44,422 nt of DNA from Kagunavirus 536P11. The stretch lies in the sequence record OZ035764.1, one strand, 5' to 3'. Positions 12,314-38,720 of this stretch are shown piece by piece. Every line of letters starts with the position of its first letter. Within the stretch, counting starts at the first letter, position 1. The translations under genes were made by a program, and so were the position numbers. A model generated the notes under the pieces. That model ran no database searches. It had not been told where the DNA came from and saw nothing but the letters and a program-made list of their open reading frames with translations.

Positions 12314-12808
12314 CTATTTACCGTGGTTCTCGTGGAACCCTAAATCTCTTTCAGCAACTCTCCTCGCAGCAACTGCATCTAGTAGCGTTTTAAAGCATCC
12401 GATGTGTGTTTTTACGTTATTGTTGAATATCTGTGCGTACCACAACCTTTCTTTCGCGTTCCAGTAAACCCCGGTTACTCCTGATTTATTATTACGCTGT
12501 TTTGACATATTTTTATGGTTTTCCGCATTGGACTTTTTAGCTAAGTTAAGCGGTCTATTGTTTATTCGGTTATGGTCTAGATGGTCTATTTGATCTGACG
12601 AGGTTAGCTTATCGTTAGGATTGTTTAAGTCCCAAGCTATACGGTGCGCCGCGTGCCATTTACCTCTGAAAAATATCCTTCTATATCCGTCTCGCTGTAC
12701 AGTACCTGCCTCCTCTCCAGCCTTAGCCCTCCCAGAACGTGTTACTCTGTTAAATATCCTTCCTGAAATTAAGTCGTATATGAAAAATTCATTCCAGTCC
12801 ATAATCAT
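12314..12808 (-). CDS. HNH-AP2 homing endonuclease-like protein
   Basis: HNH-like segment IDHLDHNRINNRPLNL and AP2-like segment GVTGVYWNAKERLWYAQI; start at MIMDW (RBS AGGAGA) preferred over track start 12940. Confidence 0.55.
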   Translation of the reverse strand: MIMDWNEFFIYDLISGRIFNRVTRSGRAKAGEEAGTVQRDGYRRIFFRGKWHAAHRIAWDLNNPNDKLTSSDQIDHLDHNRINNRPLNLAKKSNAENHKNMSKQRNNKSGVTGVYWNAKERLWYAQIFNNNVKTHIGCFKTLLDAVAARRVAERDLGFHENHGK

Positions 12809-12845
12809 CTCCTGTTGCGATAAGGCCCCTTTCGGGGCCTTTTTC

Positions 12846-13076
12846 TCACCCATCAATGTTACTTCGATACTCCCGTAACTTCTCCAGACTTTCAATTGCT
12901 TCGTTAAGGTCTGTATCAGCGTCCTTATGCCCTCTACCACCCATACATAACAGTTTCTTTAATGCGTGCTGTAGCGCGGGGTCGTTAATAACGAAGGCCC
13001 TTAGTACATCATAAACATCACATGTAATGGAATCGCCTGCGGTGTTGGTAAGTGTATGGTCGTATTTATTTGTCAC
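12846..13076 (-). CDS. hypothetical protein
   Basis: 76 aa ORF in minus-strand cassette. Confidence 0.4.
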   Translation of the reverse strand: MTNKYDHTLTNTAGDSITCDVYDVLRAFVINDPALQHALKKLLCMGGRGHKDADTDLNEAIESLEKLREYRSNIDG

Positions 13077-14682: not shown

Positions 14683-14789
14683 GTAGTGTGTTAGAATAAT
14701 TTTGCGCCTAGTGTCGCACACGAAAAGCGGGTGGTTCCCGTCTGGCGCATTTCCTTTAACCAGTAACCTCTTAACCAAAGGATTAAAGA

Positions 14790-30905: not shown

Positions 30906-31535
30906 TTAACCACGGCGGCGACGTTCGCGGCGCGGTGCTTCATCTTCTTCGTCGTCTTCCAGGTCATTGACACTGGCTGCAACTTTAGAACCGCCGAACG
31001 CTTTACCTTCGCCTACGTATTTAATTGCCAGCAGGTTAATACCGAGAACTTTGTACTTCTGGCTGAACCAGATTTCAACGCTTACGTTAGCGACGCAGCC
31101 GCTGTAAACCTGTTCACCTTCAATCTGCTCGCCGTCTACATTGAAGTCCTGCTCTACCTGAGTCTCGCCTTTTTTGGAGGTTACAATCAGTGGCTGTTTC
31201 TGAGCTTTCGCTTTGAAGTAGAAGCCTTCCGGGAAGTCTTCAAACGGATTGTCGCGCTCGGCAATGTCCTTAATAGCACATTTATCCATGTGCTTACCTT
31301 CGCCGTAGTTGGACTTCATCCATTTCTCGGCGGCGGCTGCACCTAACGCTTCTTCAACTACAGCGTAAACGGTGTCGTAGAGAGCGTCGATTTGAGCATG
31401 GTCAGACGGCAGGATAATAGTCGCGCTGTACTGGCCTTTAGTGATTGAGCCATCATCGTTTTCACGGTCTTTTTCGCGTTCAAATACGTTAACCCATGCA
31501 GTGTTTACTTTACGCAGATTTAATTTCAGTCCCAT
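30906..31535 (-). CDS. DUF2815-like protein (possible ssDNA-binding)
   Basis: 209 aa with acidic C-terminal tail; conserved neighbour of the nuclease and polymerase genes. Confidence 0.4.
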   Translation of the reverse strand: MGLKLNLRKVNTAWVNVFEREKDRENDDGSITKGQYSATIILPSDHAQIDALYDTVYAVVEEALGAAAAEKWMKSNYGEGKHMDKCAIKDIAERDNPFEDFPEGFYFKAKAQKQPLIVTSKKGETQVEQDFNVDGEQIEGEQVYSGCVANVSVEIWFSQKYKVLGINLLAIKYVGEGKAFGGSKVAASVNDLEDDEEDEAPRRERRRRG

Positions 31536-31621: not shown

Positions 31622-32884
31622 TTATTCTAAATCTTCTTCACTAACCTGATTCCACTCAGGACGTTTGTCGTCTGCCGTTGCGACACATGGCGCACCGGGC
31701 TTACGGGTAATGAAGTCTTTCAGTTCTTCTTCCGGTATAACTTTAACGGCCTCGGTCGGCGTCATAAGCACTTCTTTAGTCAGCTTGTCGCCGTACTTCT
31801 CGAATACCGCATCGGAATCTTTCCACGCACGGTTGCCCATCTTACCCTCAACCAGCTTGTACCCCGGCACTTTCTTACCGGAATGCAACGCGGCAGCCAT
31901 AGCTTTCTCAACCTTGTCGATGTGTTGACGCAACAACGGCAACTTCTCATACTCGGTTACGAGTTGCTCTGGTGTCAGTTCCAGTGCAAAATCGTCCTCC
32001 AGTTCTTCCGCCAGTACAGAATTAACGGTTTTTGTACGTGCGGCACATTGTTCAGAGAACCGACACCACTGACAGCCATCGACCGACGGCTTGAAGTCCG
32101 ACGCTTTAAGGTTCTTTTTACCACGGAAATACGCATCTAATGCTAACAGTGCACGTTTCCGTGCGAACTTAGCGAACAGTTCCAGACCTTCAACCGAGAT
32201 GTCCCACTCCGACGCGCCCCCAGCGTACGGCTGGAAGATGACCAGACGAACAACTGTGATGTTATATCGTCTCTTGAGTCGGCGATAAACACCGAGAGCA
32301 TAAAGCATAAGCTGCTTGTTTTCTTTCGCTTCAACACGGTGCCGTCCTGTTTTAAGGTCTCCAATAATGAGCATGTGCTCGTCAGTGTTAGCCAGTTCCT
32401 GCACGGCAACAAGGTCAGCGGTCCCGAACGTCTCAACGCCTTCATATCCCGGATGCAGCACCTCTGTAAGATTGACGCGCATTTCCAGCTTAGCGTAAGT
32501 CGCCACGTCTATAATCGCCTTGCAGTAGTCGGTATACTTGCGCACCTGCTCAATCATGTCAGCCGTGATTAGTACAGCGCCTTTCATCGGACTAATTAGC
32601 GCCTTAATCTGGCCTTTACCCTCGTCCAGCACGTAAGCGCCGACTTCACGCTCTAGTGGCAGTGCATTGCCGCGGATATAGGCGTTGAGATGTACCTCAG
32701 CTATGGTGTGCATAGCCGTGCCTAATACCGCGGCTTTACCGGACGTGTTGGGGATATCTTTCTCACAGGCCAGTGATGCGGCGCAGCTTAGCCACTTTTT
32801 AGCCCCGGACGGCGATAGTAAAGCGTGTACGTCGTTATTGCCACCGCGTTCTTTTAGTTTCATGCTCTTAAACTCCCACCCCAT
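31622..32884 (-). CDS. PD-(D/E)XK nuclease (DUF2800 / Cas4-RecB-like) with C-terminal Cys cluster
   Basis: 420 aa; IGDLK...E.K nuclease-like core; C-terminal CQWCRFSEQC. Confidence 0.5.
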   Translation of the reverse strand: MGWEFKSMKLKERGGNNDVHALLSPSGAKKWLSCAASLACEKDIPNTSGKAAVLGTAMHTIAEVHLNAYIRGNALPLEREVGAYVLDEGKGQIKALISPMKGAVLITADMIEQVRKYTDYCKAIIDVATYAKLEMRVNLTEVLHPGYEGVETFGTADLVAVQELANTDEHMLIIGDLKTGRHRVEAKENKQLMLYALGVYRRLKRRYNITVVRLVIFQPYAGGASEWDISVEGLELFAKFARKRALLALDAYFRGKKNLKASDFKPSVDGCQWCRFSEQCAARTKTVNSVLAEELEDDFALELTPEQLVTEYEKLPLLRQHIDKVEKAMAAALHSGKKVPGYKLVEGKMGNRAWKDSDAVFEKYGDKLTKEVLMTPTEAVKVIPEEELKDFITRKPGAPCVATADDKRPEWNQVSEEDLE

Positions 32885-36974: not shown

Positions 36975-37014
36975 TTCACGCTCTCCTGTGTAAGATGTAT
37001 CGAAGTATAAGGCG

Positions 37015-37054
37015 GTAACTTTGTAAAAGCAACCAAAACCGAACACAAAGTTAC
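37015..37054. promoter_or_regulatory. 10-bp perfect inverted repeat GTAACTTTGT-N20-ACAAAGTTAC (putative operator)
   Basis: upstream of the minus-strand HTH gene and next to the divergent promoter at 37080. Confidence 0.45.
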
Positions 37055-37079
37055 TAAGATACAAAAGATGCTACTGGTA

Positions 37080-37108
37080 TTGACTTTTACTTAAAAATAT
37101 GCTAAGCT
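37080..37108 (+). promoter_or_regulatory. sigma70-like promoter TTGACT-17-TGcTAAGCT (extended -10)
   Basis: same architecture as 5134-5162. Confidence 0.5.
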
Positions 37109-37111
37109 TCA

Positions 37112-37349
37112 CTGAGCTTGTGAGATATCGCAAGCGACCGCGGAGCGGCAGGGAACGCAACGCGTGCCATTAGGCACTTGAGTGTAGTTCCGCTGGCGCT
37201 TTCGGAAGGGCCAAAGTCTATTGTTAATCCCGCCTAAATACCCAAGCCACTGATAATTAAAAGTTTCTATAGTTGCCGCAAGCAAGGTAGAGAGTACTTC
37301 ACTCCGCTGGGGTGGGCTAACGCCCACCCACTGCGTTGCGTACTCTTTT
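37112..37349 (+). ncRNA. candidate structured small RNA, copy B (boundaries approximate)
   Basis: shares three sequence blocks with copy A; hairpins GCTTG/CAAGC and GUGCC-AUUA-GGCAC (compensatory to copy A); terminal hairpin GGTGGGC/GCCCACC; no ORF conserved between copies. Confidence 0.4.
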
Positions 37350-37388
37350 AAGAAACGAAAGAATCACAACGGCATCGTAACTATTCTC

Positions 37389-37421
37389 TTGCACACCCCA
37401 ATATAATAGGATACTATTCAC
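37389..37421 (+). promoter_or_regulatory. early promoter with operator (TTGCAC-17-TACTAT, core AATAG-N4-CTATT)
   Basis: CACCCCAATATAATAGGATACTATTCACTTA, 29/31 identical to the minus-strand promoter at 14651-14682. Confidence 0.6.
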
Positions 37422-37451
37422 TTATCGGAACGAGACAGAGGAGTGAGGGTT

Positions 37452-37643
37452 ATGTTTAAGAAGGGTCAGTTGGCGAAAACGAAACGCGGCGGACAATATG
37501 TATTAGTGATACAGGACGAGAATAAGTATGACGAGGATAATCTTGTCGACGTATGGGGTCTGGTGAGAAAGAAAAACGGGTTCGCCTTTCGCGATAACCT
37601 GGAATTAATCGGCAACAATTTTAAATTCAAAGGGGCGAAGTGA
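37452..37643 (+). CDS. hypothetical small protein
   Basis: ATG 37452 with RBS GGAGTGAGGG; stop overlaps next start (TGATG). Confidence 0.5.
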   Translation: MFKKGQLAKTKRGGQYVLVIQDENKYDEDNLVDVWGLVRKKNGFAFRDNLELIGNNFKFKGAK

Positions 37644-37834
37644 TGGAAGAATTAATTTACGACGTATACGTCGACGGGGTTATCTCAGAGACGACAAGTA
37701 ATAAAGATTACGCAATAAAGTTGTATGTGTATTATGCCGCAGTGTTAGGAAGGATGGTAGAAGTGCGGGAGCGAACGGCATCGAATCATGAGGCGAAGAT
37801 ATACACAACGGCATCGGATAAAGAGGCGAAGTGA
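37643..37834 (+). CDS. hypothetical small protein with C-terminal RTASNHEAK motif
   Basis: coupled TGATG junctions at both ends; contains 22-nt repeat GAACGGCATCGAATCATGAGGC. Confidence 0.5.
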   Translation: MEELIYDVYVDGVISETTSNKDYAIKLYVYYAAVLGRMVEVRERTASNHEAKIYTTASDKEAK

Positions 37835-38037
37835 TGCAAGAATTATTTGAAGAACTGAAACATCATGAACTAGAAGAAGTGCATTTCATAATTGACCATT
37901 ACAAAGTCACTTTATTAGACGGTACAACCATTTCTTCAGGGGCAAGTGACGATTTGTTGAAATTTTTACTTTTACTACGAACGGCATCGAATCATGAGGC
38001 TCGTGCCGACGACTCTGAGGGAGGTTGCCGTGAATAA
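37834..38037 (+). CDS. hypothetical small protein with C-terminal RTASNHEAR motif
   Basis: second copy of the 22-nt repeat at 37979-38000. Confidence 0.5.
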   Translation: MQELFEELKHHELEEVHFIIDHYKVTLLDGTTISSGASDDLLKFLLLLRTASNHEARADDSEGGCRE

Positions 38038-38097
38038 TTACCCGTTCATTTTAATTGTCAGCGCCGTTTATGTGGTGCACGCGTTGTGGGGGTTGGT

Positions 38098-38298
38098 ATG
38101 AGTGTGTGGATTAAGTGTAGCGAGCAGGTTCCGTGCAGCGAGCCTGGCCGATGGTCAAAAGATGTTATCGCGCTAAGTGATACTGGGGATGTGTTTCGTC
38201 TGGCCTGTCAAGGTGAATACTGGCAAAGAACGTCAGCGTTTGTCGAATCCGGTTCCGAAAAAGTGGTTGCATGGGCGCCGTTACCCGAGGAGGACTAA
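38098..38298 (+). CDS. DUF551-like protein
   Basis: MSVWIKCSEQ...AWAPLPE; paralogous to 38449-38640. Confidence 0.55.
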   Translation: MSVWIKCSEQVPCSEPGRWSKDVIALSDTGDVFRLACQGEYWQRTSAFVESGSEKVVAWAPLPEED

Positions 38299-38301
38299 GT
38301 T

Positions 38302-38445
38302 ATGAGAGAAGCATTCGAACGGTGGGCCGTAGTCGAGGGTCTGCCGGTTAACAAGGGTTCGAAGAAAGAGTACCTGAACGTTAAGACGCGTCTCGCGTGG
38401 CGGGCGTGGAAAGCTGGTGTGCTGTTTATCGCGAATCAGAGGTGA
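38302..38445 (+). CDS. hypothetical small protein (47 aa, not in ORF track)
   Basis: RBS GAGGAGGA before ATG 38302; fills gap between the two DUF551-like genes. Confidence 0.4.
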   Translation: MREAFERWAVVEGLPVNKGSKKEYLNVKTRLAWRAWKAGVLFIANQR

Positions 38446-38448
38446 TTT

Positions 38449-38640
38449 ATGGGTGAGTGGATTAAGTGTAGTGAGCGGATGCCGGAAAAGCTTGATGATG
38501 TGCTGGTTACTGATGGCGAGCATGTCGAGGTTAAATGGTGGAACGGTAATATTTGGGGTTGTTGGTCACCGCGTAACTCAGATATTGGTTACAAAGATGT
38601 AACTCACTGGATGCCGTTACCGCAGCCGCCAGAATTGTGA
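38449..38640 (+). CDS. DUF551-like protein
   Basis: MGEWIKCSERMPEK...HWMPLPQPP. Confidence 0.55.
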   Translation: MGEWIKCSERMPEKLDDVLVTDGEHVEVKWWNGNIWGCWSPRNSDIGYKDVTHWMPLPQPPEL

Positions 38641-38682
38641 TGTTATATTGTAACAATAGTTTGAGATTTTACTGAGTGACTT

Positions 38683-38720
38683 ACGCTGCTACACAGCAGC
38701 GTATCATTTTTCTCATTTTT
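38683..38720 (+). terminator. intrinsic terminator (ACGCTGCT-ACAC-AGCAGCGT then T-rich tract)
   Basis: after DUF551-like gene stop. Confidence 0.6.

What the first reader, a model, noticed from the sequence alone, without database searches (positions are those of the whole stretch)
37452..38037. Tandem array of three small genes with a repeated junction and repeated C-terminal motif
The three consecutive genes are joined by near-identical junctions (GGGGCGAAGTGATGGAAGAATTAATT and AGAGGCGAAGTGATGCAAGAATTATTT: SD, TGATG stop/start overlap, then M-E/Q-E-L). A 22-nt element GAACGGCATCGAATCATGAGGC occurs exactly at 37773-37794 and 37979-38000, giving both proteins the motif RTASNHEA(K/R). The core ACGGCATCG occurs twice more, at 37369-37377 and 37808-37816. 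This suggests modular duplication or recombination making a small paralogous family right after the early promoter.
Basis: seen in the sequence. Interest (0 to 1): 0.4.

Follow-up and report, generated by a model that had tools for sequence, protein, structure and literature searches.

The report
Swappable early-gene slot with shared joints
The repeats are real, but they are not a duplicated gene family: they are the shared joints of a swappable-gene slot in Kagunavirus phages, and this phage carries two unrelated inserts in a slot that usually holds one.

Summary
The paralogy interpretation is not supported.

The window is a Kagunavirus (Guernseyvirinae) coliphage. Genes g1, g2 and g3 are small ORFs with TGATG stop/start overlaps.

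In 45 unique related loci, the position after g1 is a slot holding one of at least seven unrelated gene bodies. Each body sits between the same 5' joint (end of g1, SD, TGATG, MEEL) and the same 51-nt 3' element. That element encodes the tail TASNHDARADDSEGGCR and carries the SD and start of whatever gene follows.

The window holds two bodies, A and B. The left part is about 100% identical to phage Bas73 and the right part to phage ORH_001. The switch lies inside the first 23-nt repeat.

The g2 and g3 bodies share no detectable sequence similarity and have different predicted topologies. The tail has low model confidence.

The 3' element behaves as a nucleic-acid element rather than a peptide:
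- It is read in other frames in some phages.
- It is non-coding in two phages, where a small hairpin is kept by a double compensatory change.
- Its synonymous diversity is about 3-fold below a neighbouring gene.

This is a new, well-resolved example of boundary-sequence modular exchange. Interest is moderate to low.

The parts
37358..37451 (+). Block directly upstream of g1 that is invariant in relatives. It carries promoter-like hexamers seen by eye (TTGCAC 37389-37394, 17-nt spacer, TACTAT 37412-37417; TATAAT 37402-37407) and the g1 SD. It contains the coincidental ACGGCATCG at 37369.
   Evidence: Alignment of 41 relatives: nearly every column is invariant from about 37358 to the ATG, while the sequence further upstream is mosaic. 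The consensus promoter scan did not call it.
37452..37643 (+). g1, 63 aa. The N-terminus (MFKKGQL) and C-terminus (ELIGNNFKFKGAK) are conserved and the middle is hypervariable. Member of phrog_12538, function unknown.
   Evidence: About 14 distinct middles were recovered in 46 loci; the three tested match phrog_12538 over their full length.
37608..37654 (+). 5' boundary (joint) of the slot, copy 1: the end of g1, SD GGGGCGAAG, the TGATG stop/start overlap and the first codons MEEL.
   Evidence: Conserved in all loci whatever body follows. pi is 0.03 over the 27 nt measured.
37643..37834 (+). g2, 63 aa, a chimera. It has an A-type body (MEELIYDVYVDG..., phrog_30617) and a head of the 3' element. 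Its last 12 codons (KIYTTASDKEAK) come from the end of a D-type cassette plus the hybrid joint.
   Evidence: 37621-37720 is 100% identical to Bas73 (85-90% over 37721-37760); the sequence from about 37785 is identical to ORH_001.
37772..37794 (+). Truncated first copy of the 3' boundary element: its head, which includes both arms of the small hairpin. The crossover point (microhomology ATGAGGC) is at its 3' end.
37808..37836 (+). Hybrid joint J. It combines the head of the 3' element (ACGGCATCGGAT) with the end of the 5' joint (AAAGAGGCGAAGTGATG). It is the scar that links two cassettes.
   Evidence: The same J links D+B in ORH_001/Hrm2 and, with small differences, C+B in L020. A related in-frame version is in Salmonella phage SP-101.
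37834..38037 (+). g3, 67 aa: B-type body (M[E/Q]ELFEELKHH...) with the full tail RTASNHEARADDSEGGCRE.
37981..38031 (+). Complete 51-nt 3' boundary element (ACGGCATCG...GAGGGAGGTTGCCGT). It has a small hairpin, weakened here by a U-to-G change, then a spacer, then SD GAGGGAGG. The GTG start of the next ORF follows immediately.
   Evidence: Present once in each of 121 phage records at 90% identity or more in nearly all. Diversity and frame evidence; hairpin evidence.
38030..38101 (+). 23-codon hydrophobic ORF (V/M-NNYPFILIVSAVYVVHALWGLV). It starts at a GTG 5 nt after the SD and overlaps the g3 stop (GTGAATAA). Its own stop overlaps the next ATG (ATGA).
   Evidence: Read directly from the sequence. 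The same ORF recurs in L003, L007, L020, L037 and L049. In L040 it sits at a different position with an ATG start.
38682..38712 (+). Terminator-like hairpin plus T-run. It lies after the last small gene and is the probable end of the operon.

Best explanation
The three genes open an early operon of translationally coupled small ORFs in a Kagunavirus. The position after g1 is a cassette slot. Across the phage group it holds one of at least seven unrelated small gene bodies.

Every body is framed by the same two short boundary elements:
- A 5' joint: the last codons of g1, an SD, a TGATG overlap and MEEL.
- A 51-nt 3' element: a small hairpin, a spacer, a strong SD and the start of the next gene.

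The shared 'C-terminal motif' is the coding shadow of the 3' element. Most inserts are read through it in one frame, so termination sits on the next start codon.

The window carries two bodies (A, then B) because a recombination event joined an A-cassette phage (Bas73-like) to a phage that already had a D-J-B tandem (ORH_001-like). The crossover lies inside the head of the 3' element. This left a truncated element copy (37772-37794), a remnant of the D cassette and the hybrid joint J.

Shown: the anatomy, the mosaic ancestry, the reassortment across both boundaries, and the nucleotide-level conservation of the element.

Inferred: that the boundary elements work as translation-initiation or coupling signals for the next cistron. 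Also inferred: that they serve as the homology patches for cassette exchange, probably through the phage's own Gp2.5-like annealing protein and exonuclease.
For: 1. Slot anatomy. In 45 unique loci the body types count B 15, A 6, E 6, F 4, D 3, C 2, A' 2, empty 2, and tandems A+B 3, D+B 1, C+B 1. All non-A bodies hit phrog_30617 only through the tail.

2. Reassortment. Each body type is found next to 3-8 different downstream genes and several g1 variants. Four-gamete combinations occur across both boundaries.

3. Chimera. Window 37621-37720 is 100% identical to Bas73 (85-90% over 37721-37760), and 37801-37960 is 100% identical to ORH_001 (85-100% on to 38100). The switch is at ATGAGGC.

4. The tandem is real and heritable. 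The same A-J-B unit is in three other assemblies, two of them with different flanks.

5. The element is not a peptide module.
- pi by codon position is 0.075/0.032/0.075, against 0.016/0.007/0.124 in the neighbouring gene.
- Four-fold-site pi is 0.06 against 0.18.
- Within the B family, body pi is 0.36 but the N-terminus is 0.03 and the tail 0.05.
- The element is read in other frames in L006/L015/L019 and in L022/L011.
- In L044/L047 it is non-coding yet conserved, with GCAUC/GAUGC changed to GCGCC/GGCGC.
- The hairpin is 98.3% paired, with 2 pairs changed on both sides and 0 of 500 shuffles reaching this. The consensus dG is -8.4 kcal/mol, z -2.8.

6. Coupling. All junctions of this run overlap stop and start (TGATG twice, GTGAATAA, ATGA). 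In relatives the element ends in TAATG, AAATGA or GTGxATAA.

7. Recombination machinery. The window encodes a Gp2.5-like SSB/annealing protein and an exonuclease.
Against: - No expression, translation or recombination data exist. The coupling and anchor roles are inferred.
- The crossover that made the window's g2 used only about 7 nt of microhomology. J itself looks like an illegitimate join. So not all events used the long boundary homology.
- The overall diversity of the element (pi about 0.05-0.06) is close to that of conserved genes taken over all sites (0.05). Part of its conservation may simply be backbone ancestry.
- Hairpin covariation rests on one lineage (L044/L047). There the next gene lacks a canonical ATG (ATA). 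The window's own element carries a mismatch that weakens the hairpin (dG -4.0, z -0.4).
- The whole 51-nt element does not fold better than shuffles (z -0.3 to -0.6).
Confidence: 0.72

Rival explanations
1. One reading: g1-g3 are a small paralogous family produced by tandem duplication. The repeated joints and the C-terminal motif would then be remnants of common descent of the genes.
For: Repeated joints and a repeated tail in consecutive genes of similar size. The N-termini M-E/Q-E-L are shared.
Against: - The bodies are unrelated: BLASTP aligns only the tail, g1 against g3 gives nothing, and hhalign aligns only 20 tail columns.
- The AF2 topologies differ.
- Most relatives have a single gene in the slot, drawn from at least seven unrelated bodies.
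- The two halves of the window's array have different nearest relatives.
Confidence: 0.04
2. The tail TASNHDARADDSEGGCR(E) is a functional peptide module, such as a degron, a localisation signal or a partner-binding tag. Selection would keep it on every protein placed in the slot, and the nucleotide conservation would be secondary.
For: The tail is nearly invariant at protein level in 41 B-family and 31 A-family proteins, while the bodies diverge to 55% identity. Most loci (about 38 of 46) keep the tail in frame. When the slot is empty, g1 itself is fused in frame to the tail (L027/L029; P0093).
Against: - The codon-position pattern is not that of purifying selection on a peptide. Positions 1 and 2 are about 3-fold more diverse, and four-fold sites about 3-fold less diverse, than in the neighbouring gene.
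- The tail is not translated in frame in L006/L015/L019, L022 and L011, and not at all in L044/L047, yet the DNA is conserved.
- Model confidence is low: pLDDT 38-62.
- g2 of the window has lost the distal two thirds of the tail.
Confidence: 0.12
3. The boundary elements are recognition sites of a dedicated, sequence-specific cassette-capture mechanism, analogous to integron attC sites or homing-endonuclease targets. They would not simply be translation signals that also offer homology.
For: The conservation islands have very sharp edges between unrelated DNA on both sides. The hybrid joint J recurs in three different tandems. The element contains a small hairpin. An HNH endonuclease gene is present elsewhere in the genome.
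Against: - The element is single-copy per genome, not one per cassette.
- No recombinase is adjacent to the locus.
- The joins seen are heterogeneous: 7-nt microhomology, in-frame fusions and frameshifts. This is typical of general or illegitimate recombination filtered by selection.
- The end of the element is an ordinary SD plus start codon.
Confidence: 0.06

Closest known systems
Short conserved 'boundary' or 'linker' sequences at mosaic junctions of lambdoid phages. Susskind and Botstein 1978 and Clark et al. 2001 (HK620), as cited in PMC3029335.
   Same: Short conserved sequences at gene boundaries flank non-homologous, interchangeable segments. Reassortment is seen on both sides. Exchange is proposed to occur by general homologous recombination at these patches.
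   Different: Here the patches lie inside a lytic siphophage early operon. They overlap coding ends and translation signals, giving every insert the same N-terminal residues and the same C-terminal tail. One slot has at least seven alternative bodies. [quoted passage not shown]
PeSLs (promoter-early stem-loop cassettes) of T4-type phages, which mediate modular shuffling of ORFans (Arbiol et al. 2010, PMC2839356; Comeau et al. 2014, PMC4122927).
   Same: A conserved regulatory sequence of about 50-100 bp flanks small genes of unknown function in a hyperplastic early region. It is proposed both to supply expression signals to whatever lies next to it and to act as the preferred crossover site. 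Tandem and deleted states coexist.
   Different: PeSLs are a sigma-70 promoter plus a terminator stem-loop, present in many copies per genome, and lie between genes. The Kagunavirus elements contain no promoter or terminator called by the scan. They are single-locus and act, by inference, at the level of translation (SD, stop/start overlap, small hairpin). They also overlap coding sequence.
Translationally coupled polycistronic operons with overlapping stop and start codons (ATGA, TGATG). General bacterial and phage knowledge.
   Same: All junctions in this run overlap stop and start, with an SD inside the upstream ORF.
   Different: What is unusual is that the same junction sequence is kept while the ORFs on either side are swapped.

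Membership tests
   BLASTP aligns only the 9-aa tail. g1 against g3 gives nothing. hhalign of the family profiles aligns only 20 tail columns. The PHROG hit of g3 covers the tail only.
   AF2 with family alignments gives g3 as H-E-E-E-H and g2 as E-E-H-E. Body pLDDT is about 90 in both and the tail is 38-62. These are predictions, not solved structures.
Boundary-sequence (linker) mediated modular exchange | Short conserved sequence flanked on both sides by non-homologous alternatives | tested here: met
   The 51-nt element and the roughly 45-nt 5' joint are conserved in 41 unique contexts, with unrelated DNA immediately outside them. The element is present in 121 GenBank records.
Boundary-sequence (linker) mediated modular exchange | Independent assortment of the segments on either side | tested here: met
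   Each body type occurs with 3-8 different downstream genes. Four-gamete combinations occur for g1 x slot, slot x downstream and g1 x downstream. The same A-J-B unit is found in different backgrounds.
Boundary-sequence (linker) mediated modular exchange | Crossovers actually occur within the conserved patch | tested here: inconclusive
   The window's crossover maps inside the head of the element but uses only about 7 nt of shared sequence. Other joins are fusions or frameshifts at the patches. No experimental crosses have been done.
PeSL-type mobile regulatory cassettes | The element contains a sigma-70 early promoter and a terminator stem-loop | tested here: not met
   No promoter-like or terminator-like site was called in or next to either boundary on the + strand. 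The hairpin has 5-6 bp and no T-run.
PeSL-type mobile regulatory cassettes | Many dispersed copies per genome, flanking ORFans | tested here: not met
   The boundaries occur only at this locus in the window, and the 3' element occurs once per record in relatives (122 places in 121 records).
Translationally coupled operon | Stop/start overlap, with an SD inside the upstream cistron, at each junction | tested here: met
   TGATG at 37641-37645 and 37832-37836, GTGAATAA at 38030-38037, ATGA at 38098-38101. GGGGCGAAG, GAGGCGAAG and GAGGGAGG lie upstream of the starts. Equivalent overlaps are seen in relatives.
Translationally coupled operon | Downstream translation depends on upstream translation | not testable with these tools
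   This needs reporter fusions or ribosome profiling.
Structured cis-acting RNA element | Base pairs kept through compensatory change, and stability beyond shuffled sequence | tested here: inconclusive
   For the 6-bp hairpin: 98.3% of cells paired, 2 pairs changed on both sides (one lineage, L044/L047), 0 of 500 shuffles reaching this. The consensus dG is -8.4 with z -2.8, but the window variant gives -4.0 with z -0.4. The whole element is not stable (z -0.3 to -0.6). The long-range alternative pairings show no covariation. There is no Rfam match.

The most novel reading that the evidence does not exclude
The two boundary elements form a dedicated 'adaptor' system for small early genes in Guernseyvirinae. 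The elements would be a coupling joint and a 51-nt unit of hairpin, spacer and SD. Any ORF dropped between them would be expressed at once, coupled to its neighbours, and could be swapped between co-infecting phages by the phage's own annealing and exonuclease pair. This would be a translation-level analogue of T4 PeSLs or of an integron cassette site. It would maintain an old, deeply diverged pool of alleles (body pi 0.36) of host-takeover or anti-defence genes on a homogenised backbone.
Probability: 0.25. Interest if true: 0.55.

Novelty: new member of a known kind. Interest (0 to 1): 0.33.

Why it matters
It gives an unusually clean, base-resolved example of how lytic phages swap small early genes. 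Short conserved expression signals double as crossover patches, and tandem, single, empty, fused and frameshifted states are all caught in nature.

It also carries a practical warning for annotation. A shared C-terminal 'motif', or a shared PHROG (phrog_30617), can come from an overlapping regulatory element. It need not mean the proteins are homologous.

Finally, the slot marks a set of at least seven unrelated, fast-evolving early proteins. These are natural candidates for host-takeover or anti-defence functions in a phage genus used for therapy against E. coli K1 and UPEC strains.

Tried and rejected
- Whole-element RNA structure and two long-range pairings (ACGGCA with UGCCGU at the element end, and with the internal UGCCG). 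There is no excess stability and no covariation. An extended 8-bp version of the hairpin is worse than the 6-bp one.
- Rfam at gathering threshold over the window, and at E<=1 over 37000-38150: nothing at the locus.
- ACGGCATCG as a dispersed genomic motif. There are 9 copies against 0.42 expected, but the extra copies share no context and reflect AACGGCA word bias. The leader copy is a single-base variant of ACGGCAACG.
- The alternative-frame ORF M(R/M)LVPTTLREVAVNN across the element. Its substitutions include L>P, L>R and M>R, and it has no SD, so it was judged non-coding.
- An antisense promoter-like site at 38061-38034. It is the only hit, against 4.3 expected by chance, and lies in DNA that varies among relatives.
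- A database search with the tail alone. A doubled tail returned mostly B-family proteins because few candidates are collected, so it could not enumerate all tail-bearing families.
- Fold searches of both models against the PDB: no match with E<=0.001. Pfam: no family for g1-g3 or the other bodies.
- Literature search for a description of this locus in Kagunavirus: none found.

Full report
**1. What is in the sequence**

The window is a Kagunavirus-type (Guernseyvirinae) siphophage of E. coli. The region 36800-38700 matches 176 phage records, almost all Escherichia or Salmonella phages of this subfamily. No record covers more than 70% of it, so the region is mosaic.

The exact repeat is 23 nt (37772-37794 and 37978-38000). 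A third, degenerate copy of its head lies at 37807-37838.

With ATG starts the genes are g1 37452-37643, g2 37643-37834 and g3 37834-38037, joined by TGATG overlaps. The joint 17-mer occurs exactly twice, against 0.16 expected even with three mismatches allowed. The distal 25 nt of the 3' element is unique in the genome.

**2. The genes are not paralogs**

- g2 and g3 align only over RTASNHEA(K/R). g1 and g3 do not align at all.
- Profiles built from 41 relatives of g3 and 31 relatives of g2 align over 20 tail columns only.
- AlphaFold2 with these alignments gives confident but different bodies. g3 is helix, three strands, helix. g2 is two strands, helix, strand. The tail has pLDDT 38-62.
- Neither model has a meaningful PDB neighbour. 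No Pfam family matches.
- g1 belongs to phrog_12538. g2 belongs to phrog_30617. g3 touches phrog_30617 only through the tail.

**3. What relatives show**

I compared 12 GenBank phages, 37 IMG/VR loci found with the two boundary sequences and three assemblies that encode g2.

The position after g1 is a slot. In 45 unique loci it holds one of at least seven bodies:
- A: MEELIYDVYVDG...
- A': ...IYDVYVGG...
- B: MEELFEELKHH...
- C: MIKVEIKSK...
- D: MQIIITDNT...
- E: MEELICIES...
- F: MEELPQCE...
- or nothing.

The counts are B 15, A 6, E 6, F 4, D 3, C 2, A' 2, empty 2, and tandems A+B 3, D+B 1, C+B 1.

Bodies C, D, E and F hit phrog_30617 only through the tail. The D body belongs to phrog_5684.

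All bodies lie between two conserved sequences. The first is the 5' joint ...GGCAACAATTTTAAATTCAAAGGGGCGAAGTGATGGAAGAATTA. The second is the 51-nt element ACGGCATCGAATCATGATGCTCGTGCCGACGACTCTGAGGGAGGTTGCCGT. The sequence immediately outside either one is unrelated from phage to phage.

The element is present once in each of 121 GenBank phage records, at 90% identity or more in nearly all. It ends in a strong SD (GAGGGAGG). The start codon of whatever gene comes next follows directly, always overlapping the stop of the slot gene (GTGAATAA, TAATG, AAATGA).

Each body type occurs with 3-8 different downstream genes and with several g1 variants. The segments therefore reassort across both boundaries.

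**4. How the window's tandem arose**

- Window 37621-37720 is 100% identical to Bas73 (85-90% over 37721-37760). Bas73 has an A body only.
- Window 37801-37960 is 100% identical to ORH_001 (85-100% on to 38100). ORH_001 has D+B.
- The two identities switch within 37775-37795, at the shared heptamer ATGAGGC.

So g2 is a chimera. It has an A body and the head of the A cassette's 3' element. It then continues with the last codons of a D cassette (KIYTTAS) and the hybrid joint J (DKEAK-stop).

J (ACGGCATCGGAT + AAAGAGGCGAAGTGATG) is the head of the 3' element fused to the end of the 5' joint. The same J links D to B in ORH_001/Hrm2. With small differences it links C to B in L020. A related in-frame version fuses B to A' in Salmonella phage SP-101.

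Each is present twice because two cassettes are stacked.

The tandem is not an assembly artefact. The A-J-B unit occurs in three other assemblies. One is nearly identical to the window and two have different g1, leader and downstream genes. The tandem state is rare: among the 121 GenBank records only ORH_001 and Hrm2 carry J.

**5. Peptide or nucleic-acid element?**

Several results point to the nucleic acid.

(i) Diversity by codon position in the element is 0.075/0.032/0.075. In the conserved neighbouring gene (MREAFERW...) it is 0.016/0.007/0.124. At four-fold sites it is 0.06 against 0.18, and at positions 1 and 2 it is 0.040 against 0.013.

(ii) Within the B family the body has pi 0.36 (third positions 0.43). 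The first 11 codons have 0.03 and the tail 0.05. The ends do not share the history of the body.

(iii) The element is read in another frame in L006/L015/L019 (...HNGIES-stop) and in L022/L011 (...ERHRIMMLVPTT...) (also P0081 and P0124).

(iv) In L044/L047, g1 and the slot are deleted. The element then lies after a stop codon, untranslated, yet it is conserved. Its two 5-nt arms have changed together from GCAUC/GAUGC to GCGCC/GGCGC.

On 39 distinct sequences the 6-bp hairpin is paired in 98.3% of cells. Two pairs are changed on both sides and the closing pair alternates G-U/G-C. None of 500 shuffles reaches these values. The consensus hairpin has dG -8.4 kcal/mol, z -2.8.

Caveats:
- The compensatory change is one lineage, and in it the next gene starts with ATA.
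- The window's own element has a U-to-G change that weakens the hairpin (dG -4.0, z -0.4).
- The whole 51 nt is no more stable than shuffles.
- Other pairings show no covariation.

My reading is that the element is a portable translation-initiation and coupling region for the next cistron. The tail is its coding shadow. This is an inference from the anatomy.

**6. Mechanism of exchange (inferred)**

The phage encodes a Gp2.5-like ssDNA-binding/annealing protein (30906-31535, minus strand) and an exonuclease (31622-32884, minus strand). Phage annealing and exonuclease systems are known to recombine short or diverged homologies (PMC2327257 for lambda Red, abstract seen).

The two boundaries are the only homology available between phages with different cassettes. 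Viable recombinants must therefore cross there.

Not every event used long homology:
- The window's crossover used about 7 nt.
- J looks like an illegitimate join.
- The locus also shows in-frame fusions: g1 to the tail in L027/L029 and P0093, g1 to B in P0023, and B to the 23-aa ORF in P0064.
- It shows frameshifts, and a near-complete deletion of g1 in L046.

The pattern fits general and illegitimate recombination filtered by the need to keep the joints.

**7. Comparison with what is known**

The closest concept is the short conserved boundary or linker sequences of lambdoid phages (Susskind and Botstein 1978; Clark et al. 2001, as cited in PMC3029335). That paper notes that such sequences cannot be found at most mosaic junctions.

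The closest worked example is the PeSL cassettes of T4-type phages (PMC2839356). There a conserved regulatory motif flanks ORFans and mediates insertion, deletion and replacement.

The Kagunavirus elements differ from PeSLs in four ways:
- They have no promoter or terminator called by the scan.
- They are confined to one locus.
- They overlap coding ends.
- They act, by inference, at the level of translation.

I found no description of this locus in the held literature.

**8. Verdict**

This is a new, well-resolved member of a known kind of phage genome plasticity. It has a modestly interesting twist: a regulatory element that stamps the same tail on unrelated proteins.

Function of the proteins is unknown. 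I take them to be dispensable early accessory proteins, because the slot can be empty and g1 can be almost deleted. Interest is 0.33.

Noticed in passing
window 37080-37345 (+): A region of about 260 nt lies between the divergent HTH gene and the invariant block before g1. It has a promoter-like TTGACT-17-TAAGCT with an upstream TG (37080-37108, seen by eye). The 342-nt stretch 37110-37451 folds much better than shuffles (MFE -111.5, z -3.0) and has no Rfam match. In relatives this region exists in at least four unrelated versions. Each has a GC-rich hairpin at the same relative place (GGGTGGGC/GCCCACCC here, GGGCAGGC/GCCTGCCC+TTT, GGTGCC/GGCACC). It may be a small RNA or an attenuator.
   Followed up: partly
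window 37452-37643; L001-L049: g1 keeps its first ~7 and last ~12 codons. Its middle exists in about 14 very different versions of nearly the same length; the three tested match phrog_12538 over their full length. This is a hypervariable small protein with conserved ends. In L046 the middle is deleted, leaving a mini-ORF of about 10 codons in front of the joint.
   Followed up: partly
window 38030-38101 (+): Unannotated-size ORF of 23 codons encoding a hydrophobic peptide (NNYPFILIVSAVYVVHALWGLV). It has a strong SD and stop/start overlaps on both sides. It is conserved in several relatives. In L040 it sits at a different position with an ATG start, and in P0064 it is fused to the B protein.
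   Followed up: partly
window 38098-38298 and 38449-38640 (+): Two DUF551 paralogs flank the conserved 47-aa gene (38302-38445; the Pfam family Phage_phiTE_015 is on record for this gene's counterparts in L050-L052). Their first 37 nt are 84% identical (TATGRGTGWGTGGATTAAGTGTAG...). Relatives usually have one DUF551 gene here.
   Followed up: no
L024, L030, L031, L033, L043; L044, L047: Some relatives carry an extra gene of about 85 codons (MNKATASVV...FAIYFK). It is inserted between the promoter block and g1, with a duplicated GACAGAGGAGTGAGGGTTATG junction. In L044/L047 this gene is followed directly by the 51-nt element, and g1 and the slot are deleted. The same cassette logic therefore applies one position upstream.
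   Followed up: partly
L002, L005, L008, L009, L022, L026, L035, L040, L049 (leader, alignment A3 columns ~265-290): One leader version contains a (CTCA)n tetranucleotide repeat whose copy number differs between phages, from about 2 to 7 units. This version is not present in the window.
   Followed up: no
window 14701-14765 (+): Rfam match to the int-alpA RNA motif (RF02996, 36.6 bits against a gathering score of 35.8). It lies between a DNA-repair exonuclease gene on the minus strand and a plus-strand ORF. This is unexpected in a lytic phage with no integrase noted.
   Followed up: no
window 12314-12940 (-), 30906-31535 (-), 31622-32884 (-): An HNH endonuclease gene, a Gp2.5-like ssDNA-binding/annealing protein gene and an exonuclease gene. 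The last two form a plausible phage-encoded recombination pair.
   Followed up: partly
window, whole: ACAACGGCA (9 copies), AACGGCATC (8) and ACGGCATCG (7 on the + strand) are the most frequent 9-mers of the genome. ACGGCATCG occurs 9 times on both strands against 0.42 expected. Outside the slot the copies share no longer context.
   Followed up: partly
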